This document shows positions 2,148 through 4,750 of a stretch of 64,000 bases of DNA, one piece after another (position 1 is the stretch's first letter; each line of letters starts with the position of its first letter). Location: IMG/VR virus record IMGVR_UViG_3300000101_000005; one strand, given 5' to 3'. This DNA is from a virus. Its lineage: Duplodnaviria; Caudoviricetes. The position numbers and the translations under genes were made by a program. The notes beneath the pieces were generated by a model. The model did no database searches. It saw only the letters and a program-made list of their open reading frames with translations, and was not told the origin of the DNA.

Positions 2148-2540
2148 CTATACGTCTTCTAATGTTAAAACGTTTGTAGTTGAGTCATCACTAACAGACC
2201 ACTTGTATCTGTTGTTACTAAAGTCTGTAGCAATTCTGTTTGACATCTTCATAACGTTAACTGCTTGACCGTTATAGTAACCAATGATTACCATTTCGCC
2301 TTCAAGCACAGCAGAAGAATCAGTAACTTTATTTACAAGTTTACAAATTGCTTCTTCGCCTGAGTCATTACCGTGAACTAAAAATCTACGTGAAGATTTT
2401 TGTTTAACGATATAAACATCACTGCCGCCATCTGTAGCATTAACAATAATGCCGCCGATAAACGCTGCTTCAACTGGAATATGAGGTGTTGCGTCAACAC
2501 CCAATGCACCGAAATATTTCTTATTAATTGGTCTTCCCAT
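2148..2540 (-). CDS. Hypothetical late protein (MGRPINKKYFG...)
   Basis: 130 aa; strong SD TAAGGAG; first gene after the late promoter at 2630-2635. Confidence 0.7.
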   Translation of the reverse strand: MGRPINKKYFGALGVDATPHIPVEAAFIGGIIVNATDGGSDVYIVKQKSSRRFLVHGNDSGEEAICKLVNKVTDSSAVLEGEMVIIGYYNGQAVNVMKMSNRIATDFSNNRYKWSVSDDSTTNVLTLEDV

Positions 2541-2558
2541 TTTTTTCTCCTTAAGTTT

Positions 2559-2625
2559 GACGTTCTAGGTCTACGCGGTTGGTTTTCCGCATAAGTCCGC
2601 CGTTGTCAGCGGCACACTTTTGACA
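2559..2625 (-). promoter_or_regulatory. Structured 5' leader of a late operon
   Basis: Stems GCCG/CGGC (2599-2602/2610-2613), GCGG/CCGC (2575-2578/2587-2590), GAC/GTC (2559-2561/2595-2597) and alternative TGTCA/TGACA (2604-2608/2621-2625), between the TAAATA box and the SD. Confidence 0.45.
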
Positions 2626-2629
2626 CAAG

Positions 2630-2635
2630 TATTTA
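2630..2635 (-). promoter_or_regulatory. gp55-type late promoter (TAAATA)
   Basis: GATAAATAC on the minus strand, overlapping the stop of the 89-aa gene and upstream of structural genes. Confidence 0.7.
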
Positions 2636-2902
2636 TCTTCTGCTAAGGATTGCTAGAAGTTCTTGTTGGCCAACAGTTTTAAGAAGAACGTTCATATTGT
2701 CTATTTCTGCTTGAGCTCGTTCTAAATGTATGTTACGTTTAGTTTGACGATGCATAATCATGTGCTGACTATGATTATCAATGAGCTTTTCTAGTGCTTT
2801 AGATAACTGACGAACATCGTGTTTGAACATAGAATGGTTCTTGTTCCATTTTTTCACTTGTTCTCTTAATAAAGAGAAGTCTTTGTCGTCTTTTATCTCC
2901 AT
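2633..2902 (-). CDS. Hypothetical helical protein, probably from a leaderless mRNA
   Basis: 89 aa; ATG is 6 nt downstream of a consensus -10 box and has no SD. Confidence 0.7.
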   Translation of the reverse strand: MEIKDDKDFSLLREQVKKWNKNHSMFKHDVRQLSKALEKLIDNHSQHMIMHRQTKRNIHLERAQAEIDNMNVLLKTVGQQELLAILSRR

Positions 2903-2908
2903 GCTAGT

Positions 2909-2937
2909 ATTATATAGTATTTTGGACAGTTAGTCAA
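2909..2937 (-). promoter_or_regulatory. Sigma70-type early promoter
   Basis: TTGACT (2937-2932), 17 nt, TATAAT (2914-2909). Confidence 0.85.
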
Positions 2938-2938
2938 G

Positions 2939-2963
2939 AAAAAAGACACCGAAGTGTCTTTTT
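2939..2963 (-). terminator. Intrinsic terminator
   Basis: Minus strand AAAAA-GACAC-TTCG-GTGTC-TTTTT: cUUCGg tetraloop plus U-tract; A-tract on the other side, so possibly bidirectional. Confidence 0.9.
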
Positions 2964-2970
2964 AATATAA

Positions 2971-3145
2971 GCAAAATAGGTAGGACTTGGGTACACCTAC
3001 AAGCACGGACCTGAATACCATTCTGTTCCGTACAACCTAACCCCGCTAGTGAATGCGATGTGATACTGCCTATCTCTAGTACAGCACCTGGGTACCACCC
3101 CTGGTTAGTCAAGTTCAACCCTTCTGGTAAAGGCTTCTTCCTTGC
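2971..3145 (-). ncRNA. Structured non-coding RNA of unknown family (~175-nt core, ~240-nt transcript)
   Basis: Bounded by its own promoter and terminator. Ends pair (GCAAGGAAG / CTATTTTGC); internal stems have G-U pairs and a GAGA tetraloop only on the minus strand; possible pseudoknot. Confidence 0.7.
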
Positions 3146-3187
3146 ACTATAAACAAAAGTTAATTACTCTTTTGTTGCTATATTATT

Positions 3188-3215
3188 AATATAACACAAA
3201 ATAAGTATTTGTCAA
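3188..3215 (-). promoter_or_regulatory. Sigma70-type promoter for the ncRNA
   Basis: TTGACA (3215-3210), 16 nt, extended -10 TG-T-TATATT (3193-3188). Confidence 0.7.
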
Positions 3216-3236
3216 CCTCTTTTATTTTGGATAAAA

Positions 3237-3431
3237 CTATATATTATTACTTGAAGTAACAGAAATATGTTTTAGTACTTTGCCAGTATTCTCGCCACTT
3301 TTTACAGTATATCCACTAGTACCACTACCATTAATATTTGGCTCAGAACGTGACATCATTAAGATGCGTTCCTTACGAGCTCTCATTTTTGCCTCGCGGT
3401 ATGTTTTGTGTAAATGATCGAATCTGTTCAT
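3237..3431 (-). CDS. Small basic protein (64 aa) under riboswitch control
   Basis: Start moved from 3470 to ATG 3431: it follows the SD AAGGAGG (3443-3437), while 3470 falls inside the riboswitch. MNRFDHLHKTYREAKMRARKERILMMSRSE... Confidence 0.7.
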   Translation of the reverse strand: MNRFDHLHKTYREAKMRARKERILMMSRSEPNINGSGTSGYTVKSGENTGKVLKHISVTSSNNI

Positions 3432-3456
3432 AACACCCTCCTTTTTAAAGTTAGGT

Positions 3457-3503
3457 GCGTTCCTTCGCATAATGCTACTTCCGTCCCGATTGGGATGAAC
3501 GAT
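3457..3503 (-). ncRNA. Glutamine riboswitch, glnA class (three-way junction)
   Basis: Minus strand CGTTC-A-TCCC-AATC-GGGA-C-GGAAGTA-GCA-TTA-TGC-GAAG-GAACG: P1 CGUUC/GAACG, P2, P3 and the loop-E strands GGAAGUA/GAAG match the glnA aptamer as I recall it. Confidence 0.8.
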
Positions 3504-3577: not shown

Positions 3578-4750
3578 TTACGCAAATCTTAGGTTAGCTG
3601 AAGTAACTCCAACTTTTCCTAAGTAGTCAGCTGCATTACCAAGAGATGATGCAGTGTTTGTTAACTCTACATAACCATATCTTGTCATGAAACTTACAAC
3701 TGGCTCAAATGTACCTGGATCAAGTACAACACCGCTTGACATCAAAGGAATGTATGGGCAGTAGAACGCAGGTGCGTCTGATTCCGAAGAACCTTTGTAA
3801 CCGATCAACACATCGTCGTCAGTTGCATAACCGTTAACGTACACACGCATTGCACTATTTAAAGTTCCTACAAACTTAGTGTTTGTTGGTGCTTCAAAAG
3901 TACCTTCAGTTGTTCTTGCGAACGCTGAAGTTGTAGCAGATTGTAACAACGTTAATACTGTTGGTGAAACAACAGCGTAGTTACCTGCGCCACGTCTTGT
4001 ACGCTGTGCAATCAAGTTAGATACTCTGTTGATTTGAACAGCTAAAGCAGCATGTTCGTCACCAACAAAAGTAGCAGTACCTGACACTGCACCTTGGTCG
4101 TAAGTTAAAGCAGCCGTACCAGCAAGTGTTTTCAATGATTGAATAACTTCTTGGTCAATTTCAGCTGTTATTTCTTGTGCTAAAGCAGCCATTACTTCTG
4201 CTTCGATGTCAATGCCCTGTTGAGCTTGTGCATCTTGTGCAGCTTCAAACGTCCAACGAGCACTCAATTTACGAGTTTTCGCTTCGACAGTTTGTTTCAA
4301 GATTTGAATGCTTAGTCTGTTTCCAGCTACACCTTCTAAAGCTGCTGTAGAAGCTGCTTTATCATTAGTAGCACCAGAATAACCTTCTGCGATCTTGAAA
4401 GGTGATAGTGCTTCGTCACCTGCTGTAGTGTCAGTTCCACTTCCAGAGTTGAATGCATCAGCATAACGTACTCTTAATGTGTGGATTTGACCAACAGGTC
4501 CAGTCATTGGCTGTACGCCAACTAGTTCATTAGCGATGACCGTAGGCATCACACGTCTGATCACTGGAAGGATCACACGGTTTAGTGTTGCGACGTTACC
4601 GGCAGATGTAGCACCTGCTGTAGCAGACTCGTTCAAATACGTGCGGGTATTCTCCAGAGTTGTTGCCATAACAGTACGCTTGTTACCTTGAAGTCCTTCT
4701 AAAAGGGCATCTTTGGTTTCTGACCAGCGACTTTCTAGTAGTTGTGACAT
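3578..4750 (-). CDS. gp23: Major capsid protein, T4 gp23-like
   Basis: 390 aa; motifs VGVQPMTGPVGQI, VEAKTRKLSARWTFEAAQD, AFYCPYIPL, FMTRYG; follows scaffold and protease. Confidence 0.95.
   Translation of the reverse strand: MSQLLESRWSETKDALLEGLQGNKRTVMATTLENTRTYLNESATAGATSAGNVATLNRVILPVIRRVMPTVIANELVGVQPMTGPVGQIHTLRVRYADAFNSGSGTDTTAGDEALSPFKIAEGYSGATNDKAASTAALEGVAGNRLSIQILKQTVEAKTRKLSARWTFEAAQDAQAQQGIDIEAEVMAALAQEITAEIDQEVIQSLKTLAGTAALTYDQGAVSGTATFVGDEHAALAVQINRVSNLIAQRTRRGAGNYAVVSPTVLTLLQSATTSAFARTTEGTFEAPTNTKFVGTLNSAMRVYVNGYATDDDVLIGYKGSSESDAPAFYCPYIPLMSSGVVLDPGTFEPVVSFMTRYGYVELTNTASSLGNAADYLGKVGVTSANLRFA

What the first reader, a model, noticed from the sequence alone, without database searches (positions are those of the whole stretch)
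2940..3215. Self-contained small RNA gene (own promoter and UUCG terminator) beside the capsid operon
Seen: a sigma70 promoter (3215-3188), an 8-bp leader hairpin (3152-3176), a 175-nt core whose ends pair, and a cUUCGg terminator (2939-2963). Internal stems: 3118-3134; 3060-3087 with a GAGA loop; a 7-bp stem 3003-3009/3027-3033; a 3' hairpin 2980-3000 whose loop can pair with 3110-3114 or 3092-3096 (pseudoknot). The 62-aa ORF over it has no SD. It is not tRNA, tmRNA or RNase P by motif. Inference: an early-expressed, stable phage RNA of unknown function, such as a decoy or 6S-like mimic. I cannot tell whether it matches a catalogued marine motif such as an IMES RNA.
Basis: partly seen in the sequence, partly recalled or inferred. 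Interest (0 to 1): 0.75.

Follow-up and report, generated by a model that had tools for sequence, protein, structure and literature searches.

The report
Divergent manA RNA gene in phage
The flagged stretch is a real folded, non-coding RNA of an uncultured marine T4-like phage. It belongs to the already catalogued but unexplained "manA" RNA family, and here it is built as its own small gene with a promoter and a terminator, not as a switch in front of another gene.

Summary

**What it is.** Window 2970-3174 (-) matches Rfam manA (RF01745) over the whole model at 54.7 bits. That is 0.5 bit under the curated cut-off, which is why a default scan is silent. The window-wide E-value is 3e-11.

**Relatives and fold.**
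- At least 112 relatives occur in viral contigs and in Pelagibacter phage Mosig.
- They form a divergent clade scoring 45-64 bits, against 133-195 bits for cyanophage manA.
- 27 of 43 predicted pairs show compensatory changes.
- An extra helix, P0, joins the predicted 5' end to the 3' tail.
- The 62-aa ORF is not conserved.

**Context in this clade.**
- The promoter is conserved.
- 63% of copies carry an intrinsic terminator 12-18 nt after the fold.
- 43 of those 48 copies then have a fresh promoter.
- No antiterminator is predicted.
- The downstream genes are unrelated to one another.
- In four contigs the next gene converges on the RNA.

**Reading.** This is a self-contained early RNA of about 240 nt that most likely acts as a free RNA. 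A 2026 preprint reports that manA RNAs self-assemble into RNA cages in vitro. Its function in the cell is unknown. I found no support for a 6S-like or decoy role.

This scan has already met manA-like RNAs in other genomes.

The parts
3188..3215 (-). Sigma70-type promoter: -35 TTGACA 3215-3210, 16-nt spacer, extended -10 TGtTATATT ending at 3188. Predicted start near A3181.
   Evidence: One search gives 11 of 12 matches with TG. In 56 distinct upstream sequences of homologues the -35, the TG and the -10 are conserved while the spacer is not. The start site is inferred, not measured.
3175..3181 (-). P0, 5' strand (AUAGCAA). It pairs with 2974-2967.
   Evidence: Cognate 5'/3' strands pair better than swapped ones: -7.4 against -5.9 kcal/mol, with 0 of 5000 permutations reaching the observed value. 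Full compensatory replacements are seen in L059, L112, L016 and the Mosig group.
3152..3176 (-). P1 leader hairpin, 8 bp (3176-3169 / 3159-3152).
   Evidence: It is the first hairpin of the Rfam manA model. The arms change together in homologues (alignment A2).
2970..3174 (-). manA-family RNA core, Rfam model positions 1-192.
- P2: 3150-3147 / 2979-2976
- P3: 3144-3141 / 3113-3110 and 3135-3129 / 3123-3117
- P4: 3108-3103 / 3042-3037
- P5: 3101-3099 / 3092-3090, with loop GUGGUA 3098-3093
- P6: 3088-3082 / 3068-3062 plus 3079-3077 / 3072-3070, with GAGA loop 3076-3073
- P7: 3058-3055 / 3046-3043
- P8: 3033-3028 / 3008-3003 plus 3023-3021 / 3015-3013
- P9: 3000-2996 / 2984-2980
   Evidence: 54.7 bits, gathering score 55.2, E 3.3e-11 window-wide. 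Searches give the covariation.
2967..2974 (-). P0, 3' strand (UUGCUUAU), directly before the terminator.
2939..2963 (-). Intrinsic terminator: stem 2963-2954 / 2949-2940, UUCG loop, U run. The predicted RNA 3' end is near 2940, giving an RNA of about 240 nt.
   Evidence: 48 of 76 non-redundant homologues have a terminator 12-18 nt after the fold, with unrelated stem sequences. The stem-pair probability in the full transcript is 0.84 here and 0.90 on average, so no competing fold is predicted.
2909..2937 (-). Second sigma70-type promoter (TTGACT, 17 nt, TATAAT). It belongs to the next unit, the 89-aa ORF 2633-2902, not to the RNA.
   Evidence: One search gives 11 of 12 matches. It is conserved in L003, L018, L032 and L082.
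2930..3118 (-). 62-aa ORF. It is not a gene.
   Evidence: the start codon is present in 2 of 69 homologues, 67 of 69 have stops, and there is no codon-position bias. There are no Pfam or PHROG hits.

Best explanation
The stretch encodes a divergent member of the manA RNA family (Rfam RF01745), organised as a self-contained gene.

**Transcription.** A conserved sigma70-type promoter, presumably early, starts transcription near 3181. RNA polymerase stops at the intrinsic terminator 2963-2939. The product is an RNA of about 240 nt.

**Fold.** The RNA adopts the nine-helix manA fold. Its 5' end pairs with the tail just before the terminator (P0), so both ends are buried.

**Mode of action.** In this clade the RNA acts as a free molecule, in trans. 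It is not a switch for the next gene, which has its own promoter.

**Inferred by analogy only.** Its conserved loops resemble the kissing-loop and loop-receptor contacts that a 2026 preprint reports for other manA RNAs. Those RNAs assemble in vitro into pentamer-based decamers or a 60-mer cage. The relevant features here are:
- L5 GGUGGUAC
- ACC-containing loops L3, L7 and L9
- L8 UGGUA
- the GNRA loop L6

**Status of each step.** Shown: family membership, the fold, non-coding status, and the conserved promoter/terminator/next-promoter layout. Inferred: the start site, early timing, stability, trans action and self-assembly.
For: **Family.**
- The full-length Rfam match scores 54.7 bits, E 3.3e-11.
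- Among 13 clade members tested, six pass the gathering score; phage Mosig scores 64.0.

**Fold.**
- 27 of 43 pairs are compensated; 98.6% are standard pairs, against 82% in shuffles.
- P0 covaries.

**Non-coding.**

**Own unit.**
- The promoter hexamers and the TG are conserved while the spacer varies.
- 48 of 76 copies have a terminator with non-homologous stems.
- 43 of those 48 are followed within 90 nt by a new promoter. In 35 it is a T4-type late TAAATA motif, against 3% of random 90-nt windows.
- No competing antiterminator is predicted; the terminator pair probability is 0.90.

**Not tied to one gene.**
- The downstream genes fall into 10 or more unrelated families. They include gp32, rubrerythrin, peroxiredoxin, mannose-6-P isomerase/cytidylyltransferase, a TonB receptor and a radical SAM enzyme.
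- In four contigs the next real gene converges on the RNA.
- In cyanophage-type manA, 6 of 99 copies are followed within 5-19 nt by a tRNA gene; in two loci checked with Rfam the gap is 13 nt or none.

**Assembly.** In vitro cages and decamers of manA RNAs form through L5-L7', L8-L9' or L3-L8' kissing loops and a GNRA L6-P6' contact (preprint 10.64898/2026.07.01.735769). The matching loop motifs are present here.
Against: - No transcript ends were measured. RNA-library contigs include pieces that bridge the promoter (3137-3305) and the terminator (2905-3007), so read-through or DNA carry-over cannot be excluded.
- 37% of clade members lack a clear terminator. The Mosig group runs straight into a ribosome-binding site and an ORF 22-31 nt later.
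- 57 of 99 cyanophage-type copies have an ORF within 70 nt. A 5'-leader role therefore fits much of the family.
- Loop-loop pairing shows no usable covariation in this clade.
- The window's own L7 lacks the ACC motif.
- The cage result is a single in vitro preprint made at high RNA concentration, and none of its constructs is from this clade.
Confidence: 0.6

Rival explanations
1. Orphan riboswitch or attenuator. The manA fold binds an unknown ligand and decides whether transcription stops at the terminator 2963-2939 or runs on into the downstream genes.
For: - Rfam and Weinberg et al. 2010 class manA as a cis-regulatory riboswitch candidate because it is complex and lies in 5' UTRs.
- A terminator 12-18 nt after the fold is what an expression platform would look like.
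- Contigs from RNA libraries cross the terminator.
- A glutamine riboswitch lies 280 nt upstream.
Against: - The terminator stems share no sequence between copies and do not overlap the fold.
- No alternative pairing competes with the terminator; pair probability is 0.90.
- The downstream genes are functionally unrelated. They include tRNA genes and converging genes.
- 43 of 48 terminator-bearing copies have a fresh promoter behind the terminator.
- I found no report of a ligand in the held literature.
Confidence: 0.15
2. Promoter-proximal leader that acts on the transcription complex or the transcript. It could work as a processive antiterminator like HK022 put RNA, or as a 5' stabiliser, so that variable cargo genes behind it are expressed.
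For: - The RNA always starts at the predicted transcription start of a strong promoter. This holds in both subfamilies: 58 of 76 and 75 of 99 copies by strict criteria.
- The 5' end is base-paired.
- The cargo behind it is heterogeneous.
- A terminator directly behind it would be read through by a modified polymerase.
Against: - Converging genes behind the RNA in four contigs.
- The next genes have their own promoters.
- The fold is far larger and more conserved than known put-type or stabiliser elements (my knowledge of HK022 put; not tested here).
- The in vitro multimerisation points elsewhere.
Confidence: 0.1
3. 6S-like mimic or protein decoy that sequesters host RNA polymerase or another host protein.
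For: Only the general features of a stable, promoter-to-terminator phage RNA.
Against: - No Rfam 6S, SRP, RNase P or tmRNA match, even at E up to 10 in the region.
- The covariation-supported fold is a multi-branch core, not a rod with a central bubble.
Confidence: 0.05
4. The 62-aa ORF 2930-3118 is a real small protein gene.
For: An open frame of 62 codons exists in the window.
Against: - The start codon is present in only 2 of 69 homologues, and 67 of 69 have in-frame stops.
- There is no codon-position bias.
- There is no ribosome-binding site and no family hit.
- Base pairing, not the reading frame, is conserved.
Confidence: 0.01

Closest known systems
manA RNA motif (Rfam RF01745; Weinberg et al. 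2010, PMC2864571), cyanophage type
   Same: - Same nine-helix architecture, aligned over all 192 model positions.
- Same conserved GUG after the closing stem and GGUGGU in L5.
- Same P9 and closing-stem motif, and a GNRA-type L6.
- Found in T4-like marine phages, directly behind a strong sigma70-type promoter.
   Different: - Scores 45-64 bits, against 133-195 bits for the cyanophage type.
- J2/3 reads CAAGGAAGA instead of CUGAAUAA.
- P6 is about 17 nt longer.
- An extra terminal helix, P0, covaries. By eye, the cyanophage-type flanks show no 5' strand for it (not tested formally).
- 63% of copies end in their own terminator, against 17% for the cyanophage type. There, 58% have an ORF within 70 nt.
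manA RNA assemblies in vitro (preprint 10.64898/2026.07.01.735769)
   Same: Same family. The loops named there as contacts have counterparts here: L5 GGUGGUAC, L7 UACC in most clade members, L8 UGGUA, L9 and L3 with ACC, and L6 GAGA/GAAA.
   Different: - None of the studied constructs is from this clade.
- Assembly of this RNA is untested.
- The window's own L7 (UUCACU) lacks ACC and would need another pairing register.
Stable RNAs co-transcribed with tRNAs in phage T4 (species 1 and 2 / RNA C and D), and large phage-associated RNAs that multimerise (ROOL, GOLLD). From my own knowledge; not tested here.
   Same: Phage-encoded, highly structured RNAs without a known function. Some manA copies sit directly against tRNA genes.
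   Different: No sequence or model relationship was found. The Rfam scan returned only manA for this stretch.
Glutamine riboswitch (RF01739) 280 nt upstream in the same window
   Same: A structured RNA in the same RNA-rich island after the capsid gene.
   Different: The glutamine riboswitch sits directly on the start of its small ORF. The manA RNA is separated from the next ORF by a terminator and a promoter.

Membership tests
manA RNA (Rfam RF01745) | Significant full-length match to the family covariance model, at or above the curated gathering score (55.2 bits). | tested here: inconclusive
   - 54.7 bits over model positions 1-192.
- E 2.4e-13 for the region and 3.3e-11 for the whole window.
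- That is highly significant, but 0.5 bit under the curated cut-off.
- Six of 13 clade members tested pass it (57.5-64.0 bits) and seven do not (45.3-54.5 bits).
manA RNA (Rfam RF01745) | The consensus secondary structure (P1 hairpin, closing stem, multi-helix core) is supported by covariation. | tested here: met
   - RNAalifold on 69 homologues recovers the same helices without using the Rfam model.
- 27 of 43 pairs are compensated.
- Shuffle and slide controls fall far below the observed values.
manA RNA (Rfam RF01745) | Conserved sequence blocks of the consensus: GUG after the closing stem, CUGAAUAA in J2/3, GGUGGU loop, ACCA loop, P9/closing-stem CC..CC. | tested here: inconclusive
   - GUG, GGUGGU and the P9/closing-stem blocks are present and invariant in the clade.
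- J2/3 is CAAGGAAGA instead of CUGAAUAA.
- L7 is UACC in most members and UUCACU in the window.
manA RNA (Rfam RF01745) | Occurs in marine phages or bacteria, in the potential 5' UTR of genes (the basis of the cis-regulatory typing). | tested here: inconclusive
   - It is in a marine T4-like phage.
- In the window and in 63% of the clade, a terminator and usually a new promoter separate the RNA from the next gene.
- The Mosig-type copies do sit in a 5' UTR.
manA RNA (Rfam RF01745) | Self-assembly into pentamer-based closed oligomers (preprint, in vitro). | not testable with these tools
   Only the loop motifs can be compared.
Riboswitch with a terminator expression platform | The terminator competes with an alternative pairing that involves the aptamer. 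| tested here: not met
   - Terminator pair probability in the full transcript averages 0.90 (minimum 0.76) over 46 copies.
- The terminator stems are unrelated in sequence, while the adjacent fold is conserved.
- This is a thermodynamic prediction only.
Riboswitch with a terminator expression platform | The downstream genes are functionally coherent. | tested here: not met
   There are 10 or more unrelated protein families, plus tRNA genes and converging genes.
6S RNA / tmRNA / tRNA / RNase P / SRP | A match to the family model. | tested here: not met
   - ARAGORN finds nothing in the window.
- The Rfam scan of the region at E up to 10 lists none of these.

The most novel reading that the evidence does not exclude
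In infected cells this phage makes a dedicated, separately terminated RNA that self-assembles through its conserved loops into closed RNA-only rings or cages. That would be a phage-encoded RNA particle with a role of its own, for example sequestering a host factor or small molecules. The long-standing 'riboswitch candidate' label of manA would then be wrong for the whole family.
Probability: 0.2. Interest if true: 0.85.

Novelty: new variant of a known kind. Interest (0 to 1): 0.42.

Why it matters
manA has been an unexplained "riboswitch candidate" since 2010. A 2026 preprint reports that it builds RNA-only cages in vitro.

This clade offers natural evidence on how phages deploy it:
- a conserved promoter-to-terminator unit with buried ends;
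- a fresh promoter behind the terminator;
- unrelated or even converging neighbouring genes.

That pattern argues for a free, trans-acting RNA and against a gene switch.

There is a practical point as well. About half of this clade falls just under Rfam's cut-off, so routine annotation misses it. That includes the window and many abundant marine myophage contigs. Phage Mosig, which infects Pelagibacter ubique HTCC1062, carries a member and could serve as an experimental system.

Tried and rejected
**RNA-library evidence.**
- Twelve RNA runs hold 15-31% of the sampled words of a 921-nt query.
- I laid contigs from four studies. They show pieces inside the RNA, for example 2994-3159 with no differences.
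- Other pieces bridge the promoter (3137-3305) and the terminator (2905-3007; 2781-3219 in a run that may be DNA).
- Contigs cannot show transcript ends, and DNA carry-over is possible. This neither supports nor refutes a discrete transcript.

**Kissing-loop covariation.**
- Cognate and swapped loop pairs (L8-L9, L3-L8, L7-L8, J3/4-L9) differ by 0.4 kcal/mol or less.
- L5 is invariant in my set, partly because my search pattern required it. No conclusion is possible.

**Cellular genomes.** The scan gave 85 pattern hits. All were chance matches except two contigs of one Red Sea MAG, which are probably mis-binned phage DNA. There is no host clue.

**Own genome.** No whole genome is held for this window.

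**Closest cultured relative.**
- By DNA, only Mosig matches the RNA, at 71% identity.
- By capsid protein, the best hits are jumbo myophages at about 70% identity.
- I therefore do not call the phage a pelagiphage.

**Dismissed readings.**
- The 62-aa ORF.
- tRNA or tmRNA.
- Weak Rfam matches to STnc130, microRNA precursors and snoRNA, all at E 0.3-10 and far below their cut-offs.

**Not run.** I did not use the count of structure pairs or build my own covariance model. The same counts and controls were computed.

Full report
**1. What is in the sequence**

On the minus strand, downstream of a T4-type major capsid gene, lies a compact unit. The capsid gene is 3578-4750, with a Gp23 Pfam match at E 1e-99. 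The unit is read and consists of:
- a sigma70-type promoter: TTGACA 3215-3210, a 16-nt spacer, and TATATT 3193-3188 preceded by TG (11 of 12 matches);
- a structured stretch, 3181-2967;
- an intrinsic terminator: 10-bp stem 2963-2954 / 2949-2940, UUCG loop, U run to 2939.

Immediately after comes a second promoter (TTGACT 2937-2932, TATAAT 2914-2909; 11 of 12). Then an 89-aa ORF starts at 2902.

The single-sequence fold is more stable than shuffles, with z = -2.9. No tRNA or tmRNA is found.

**2. It is a manA RNA**

A default Rfam scan of the window lists three families: a glutamine riboswitch at 3454-3503, freshwater-2 at 2538-2613, and Polynucleobacter-1 at 17504-17648. It lists nothing for the target.

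With the E-value threshold, 2970-3174 (-) matches manA (RF01745) over model positions 1-192.
- The score is 54.7 bits; the curated gathering score is 55.2.
- The E-value is 2.4e-13 for the region and 3.3e-11 for the whole window.
- Relative to the model, the alignment shows a 4-nt deletion in J2/3, a P6 about 17 nt longer, and small changes in P8.

So the RNA belongs to a catalogued family and is missed by half a bit.

**3. Homologues and covariation**

BLAST finds one isolate with the element: Pelagibacter phage Mosig, at 71% identity. There it lies in the intergenic space before a rubrerythrin gene.

Rfam scores of 13 of these range from 45.3 to 64.0 bits. Six pass the cut-off, Mosig at 64.0. 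Cyanophage-type manA RNAs fetched with the consensus pattern score 133-195 bits. The window therefore belongs to a divergent subfamily at the edge of the model's reach.

RNAalifold on 69 distinct cores predicts the same helices as the Rfam model. 27 of 43 pairs carry double-sided compensatory changes.

My own controls on the same pairs:

| Measure | Observed | 500 column shuffles | Partners slid 1-3 columns |
|---|---|---|---|
| Standard pairs | 98.6% | 82% (max 83%) | 28-51% |
| Compensated pairs | 27 | mean 19.6 (max 24) | 9-15 |

The 62-aa ORF over the RNA is an accident of this sequence:
- its TTG start exists in 2 of 69 homologues;
- 67 of 69 have in-frame stops;
- variation is equal at the three codon positions.

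**4. An extra helix that joins the ends**

The segment between the -10 box and P1 is complementary to the conserved tail that follows the closing stem. In the window these are AUAGCAA (3181-3175) and UUGCUUAU (2974-2967).

Across the clade the two strands change together:
- AUAAGCAA / UUGCUUAU in most copies;
- AUAGCAA / UUGCUAU with a matched one-base deletion;
- AAUGC / GCAUU and ACAAUAUGC / GCAUAUUGU in the Mosig group;
- UAAGUA / UACUUA;
- a wholly different ACAAUACC / GGUAUUGU in L112.

Cognate strands pair at -7.4 kcal/mol on average, against -5.9 for swapped partners. No permutation out of 5000 reached the observed value. That control ignores relatedness. The independent replacements are the stronger evidence.

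The 5' strand begins about 7 nt after the -10 box, which is the expected start site. The RNA is therefore predicted to have both ends buried. By eye, the cyanophage-type flanks show no 5' strand for P0, because P1 begins at the predicted start. I did not test this formally.

**5. The unit is conserved as a unit**

In 56 distinct upstream sequences the -35, the TG and the -10 are conserved and the spacer is not. The -10 is TATATT in 46 of them.

Of 76 non-redundant copies with enough flank:
- 58 have a strict promoter match;
- 48 have a perfect-stem terminator starting 12-18 nt after the fold.

The terminator stems are unrelated in sequence, so what is kept is the function.

In the full predicted transcripts (242-255 nt) the terminator pairs have a mean probability of 0.90. 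I see no conserved alternative pairing.

Behind 43 of the 48 terminators a new promoter follows within 90 nt. It is either sigma70-like, as in the window, or a T4-type late motif ([AC]TAAATA). The late motif occurs in 35 copies, against 3% of random 90-nt windows of the same contigs.

The first same-strand ORFs belong to at least ten unrelated families:
- gp32
- rubrerythrin
- peroxiredoxin
- a mannose-6-phosphate isomerase/cytidylyltransferase fusion
- a TonB-dependent receptor
- a radical SAM enzyme
- several unknowns

In four contigs the next real gene is on the opposite strand and converges on the RNA. These genes are a carbamoyltransferase, two class-II synthetase-like genes, and a baseplate OB-domain protein.

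Among 99 cyanophage-type copies the picture differs:
- 75 have the promoter;
- 17 have a strict terminator;
- 57 have an ORF within 70 nt;
- 6 are followed within 5-19 nt by a tRNA gene; in two loci checked with Rfam the gap is 13 nt or none.

**6. How it most likely works**

*Shown:*
- it is a manA-family fold;
- it is non-coding;
- in this clade it is flanked by a conserved promoter and a terminator;
- its neighbours carry their own promoters.

*Inferred:*
- transcription starts near 3181 and ends near 2940;
- expression is early, from the host-type promoter;
- the closed ends make the RNA stable;
- it acts free of its neighbours.

The only functional data on the family that I found is a 2026 preprint (10.64898/2026.07.01.735769). 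It reports that manA RNAs assemble in vitro into pentamer-based decamers, octamers or a 60-subunit cage. The contacts are kissing loops L5-L7' and L8-L9' (or L3-L8'), plus a GNRA L6-P6' contact.

With helices numbered P1-P9 as here, the window has these loops:

| Loop | Sequence in the window | Note |
|---|---|---|
| L3 | UACCAG | |
| L5 | GUGGUA | invariant in the clade |
| L6 | GAGA | |
| L7 | UUCACU | UACC in most relatives |
| L8 | UGGUA | |
| L9 | UGUACCCAAGU | |

The GGU/ACC complementarity needed for such contacts is present. It does not covary in my set. I therefore give self-assembly in vivo about 0.2-0.3, and the stand-alone manA gene reading 0.6.

**7. Rivals**

- **Riboswitch using the terminator as its platform (0.15).** It is weakened by the lack of a competing fold, the unrelated cargo, the tRNA and converging neighbours, and the promoters behind the terminators.
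- **Promoter-proximal antitermination or stabilising leader (0.1).** It fits the strict position at the start site and the 5'-UTR copies. It does not fit the converging cases or the size of the fold.
- **6S-like decoy (0.05).** Nothing specific supports it.
- **The ORF (0.01).** Refuted.

**8. Transcription data**

RNA libraries from several marine studies contain pieces of the stretch. They are assembled contigs at low depth, and some cross the promoter or the terminator. They settle nothing about ends. This is the main gap.

**9. Novelty and verdict**

The family has been known since 2010 (PMC2864571) and is annotated in some cyanophages (PMC9964418). The finding is not a new class.

What is new relative to the catalogue is a divergent, abundant subfamily with these properties:
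- half of it falls under the Rfam cut-off;
- it carries an added end-joining helix;
- it has a conserved promoter-terminator-promoter layout that speaks against the cis-regulatory label.

Earlier notes of this scan reached a similar view for larger manA-like RNAs beside tRNA arrays in other genomes. I did not rely on them. My tRNA-adjacent and converging cases agree with them.

Interest is moderate. The instance is ordinary as a member of manA, but it is useful evidence for what manA is.

Noticed in passing
window 2633-2937 (-): The 89-aa ORF (ATG at 2902) appears to be leaderless. The -10 box TATAAT (2914-2909) ends 7 nt before the A of the ATG, and there is no ribosome-binding site. The same promoter-to-ATG spacing is kept in L003, L018, L032 and L082. 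The protein has no Pfam or PHROG hit.
   Followed up: partly
window 2538-3503 (-); also L003, L010, L029, L037, L041: Three catalogued structured RNAs lie in a row after the capsid gene, all on one strand: a glutamine riboswitch (3454-3503), manA (2970-3174) and freshwater-2 (2538-2613). The same order recurs in many viral contigs. In some, freshwater-2 follows manA by only about 65-70 nt.
   Followed up: partly
window about 2625-2640 (-), and after the manA terminator in 35 of 48 homologues: A T4-type late-promoter-like motif (GATAAATAC) sits directly before the freshwater-2 RNA. In the window it overlaps the stop codon of the 89-aa ORF. Freshwater-2 would then be the 5' leader of a late transcript for the 130-150-aa ORF family (window 2148-2540).
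   Followed up: partly
L133, L135, L136, L142, L145, L159, L163, L167, L169, L173, L175, L179, L191, L199 (directly after cyanophage-type manA): A recurring element of about 45 nt (AGACCUAAGAUGCAACU ... GGGCAGAUGGUCU followed by a U run) follows many cyanophage manA RNAs. It has no Rfam match at E up to 0.001 in the three of these loci scanned (L135, L142, L163). It may be a large-loop terminator or a further small motif.
   Followed up: partly
L122, L124, L128, L132 and many other cyanophage-type loci, upstream of manA: The -35 box of the manA promoter often sits in the loop of a GC-rich hairpin that is followed by a T run (for example GGAGGGG-TTGACA-CCCTCC-TTTTTTT). A terminator for the upstream unit and the promoter for manA therefore overlap.
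   Followed up: no
L125 344-627 (-), L140 2344-2609 (-): In some cyanophage contigs manA abuts a tRNA gene (tRNA-Asn or tRNA-Gly), with a gap of 13 nt or none. RNase P cleavage would then release manA with a defined 3' end.
   Followed up: partly
L307 and L320 (MAG 'Candidatus Neomarinimicrobiota' RS350, Red Sea): This is the only cellular-genome record, among one genome for each of 185,579 species, that holds this manA clade. It carries identical copies on two contigs of 153 kb and 335 kb. These are probably phage DNA binned into the MAG.
   Followed up: no
window 3578-4750 (-): The major capsid protein is closest (about 68-72% identity) to those of jumbo myophages: Sinorhizobium phage Phosso, Vibrio phage 2.275.O, and the CBB/GAP32 group. 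It is not closest to cyanophages or to Mosig, although the RNA island is shared with Mosig- and Melnitz-like phages.
   Followed up: no
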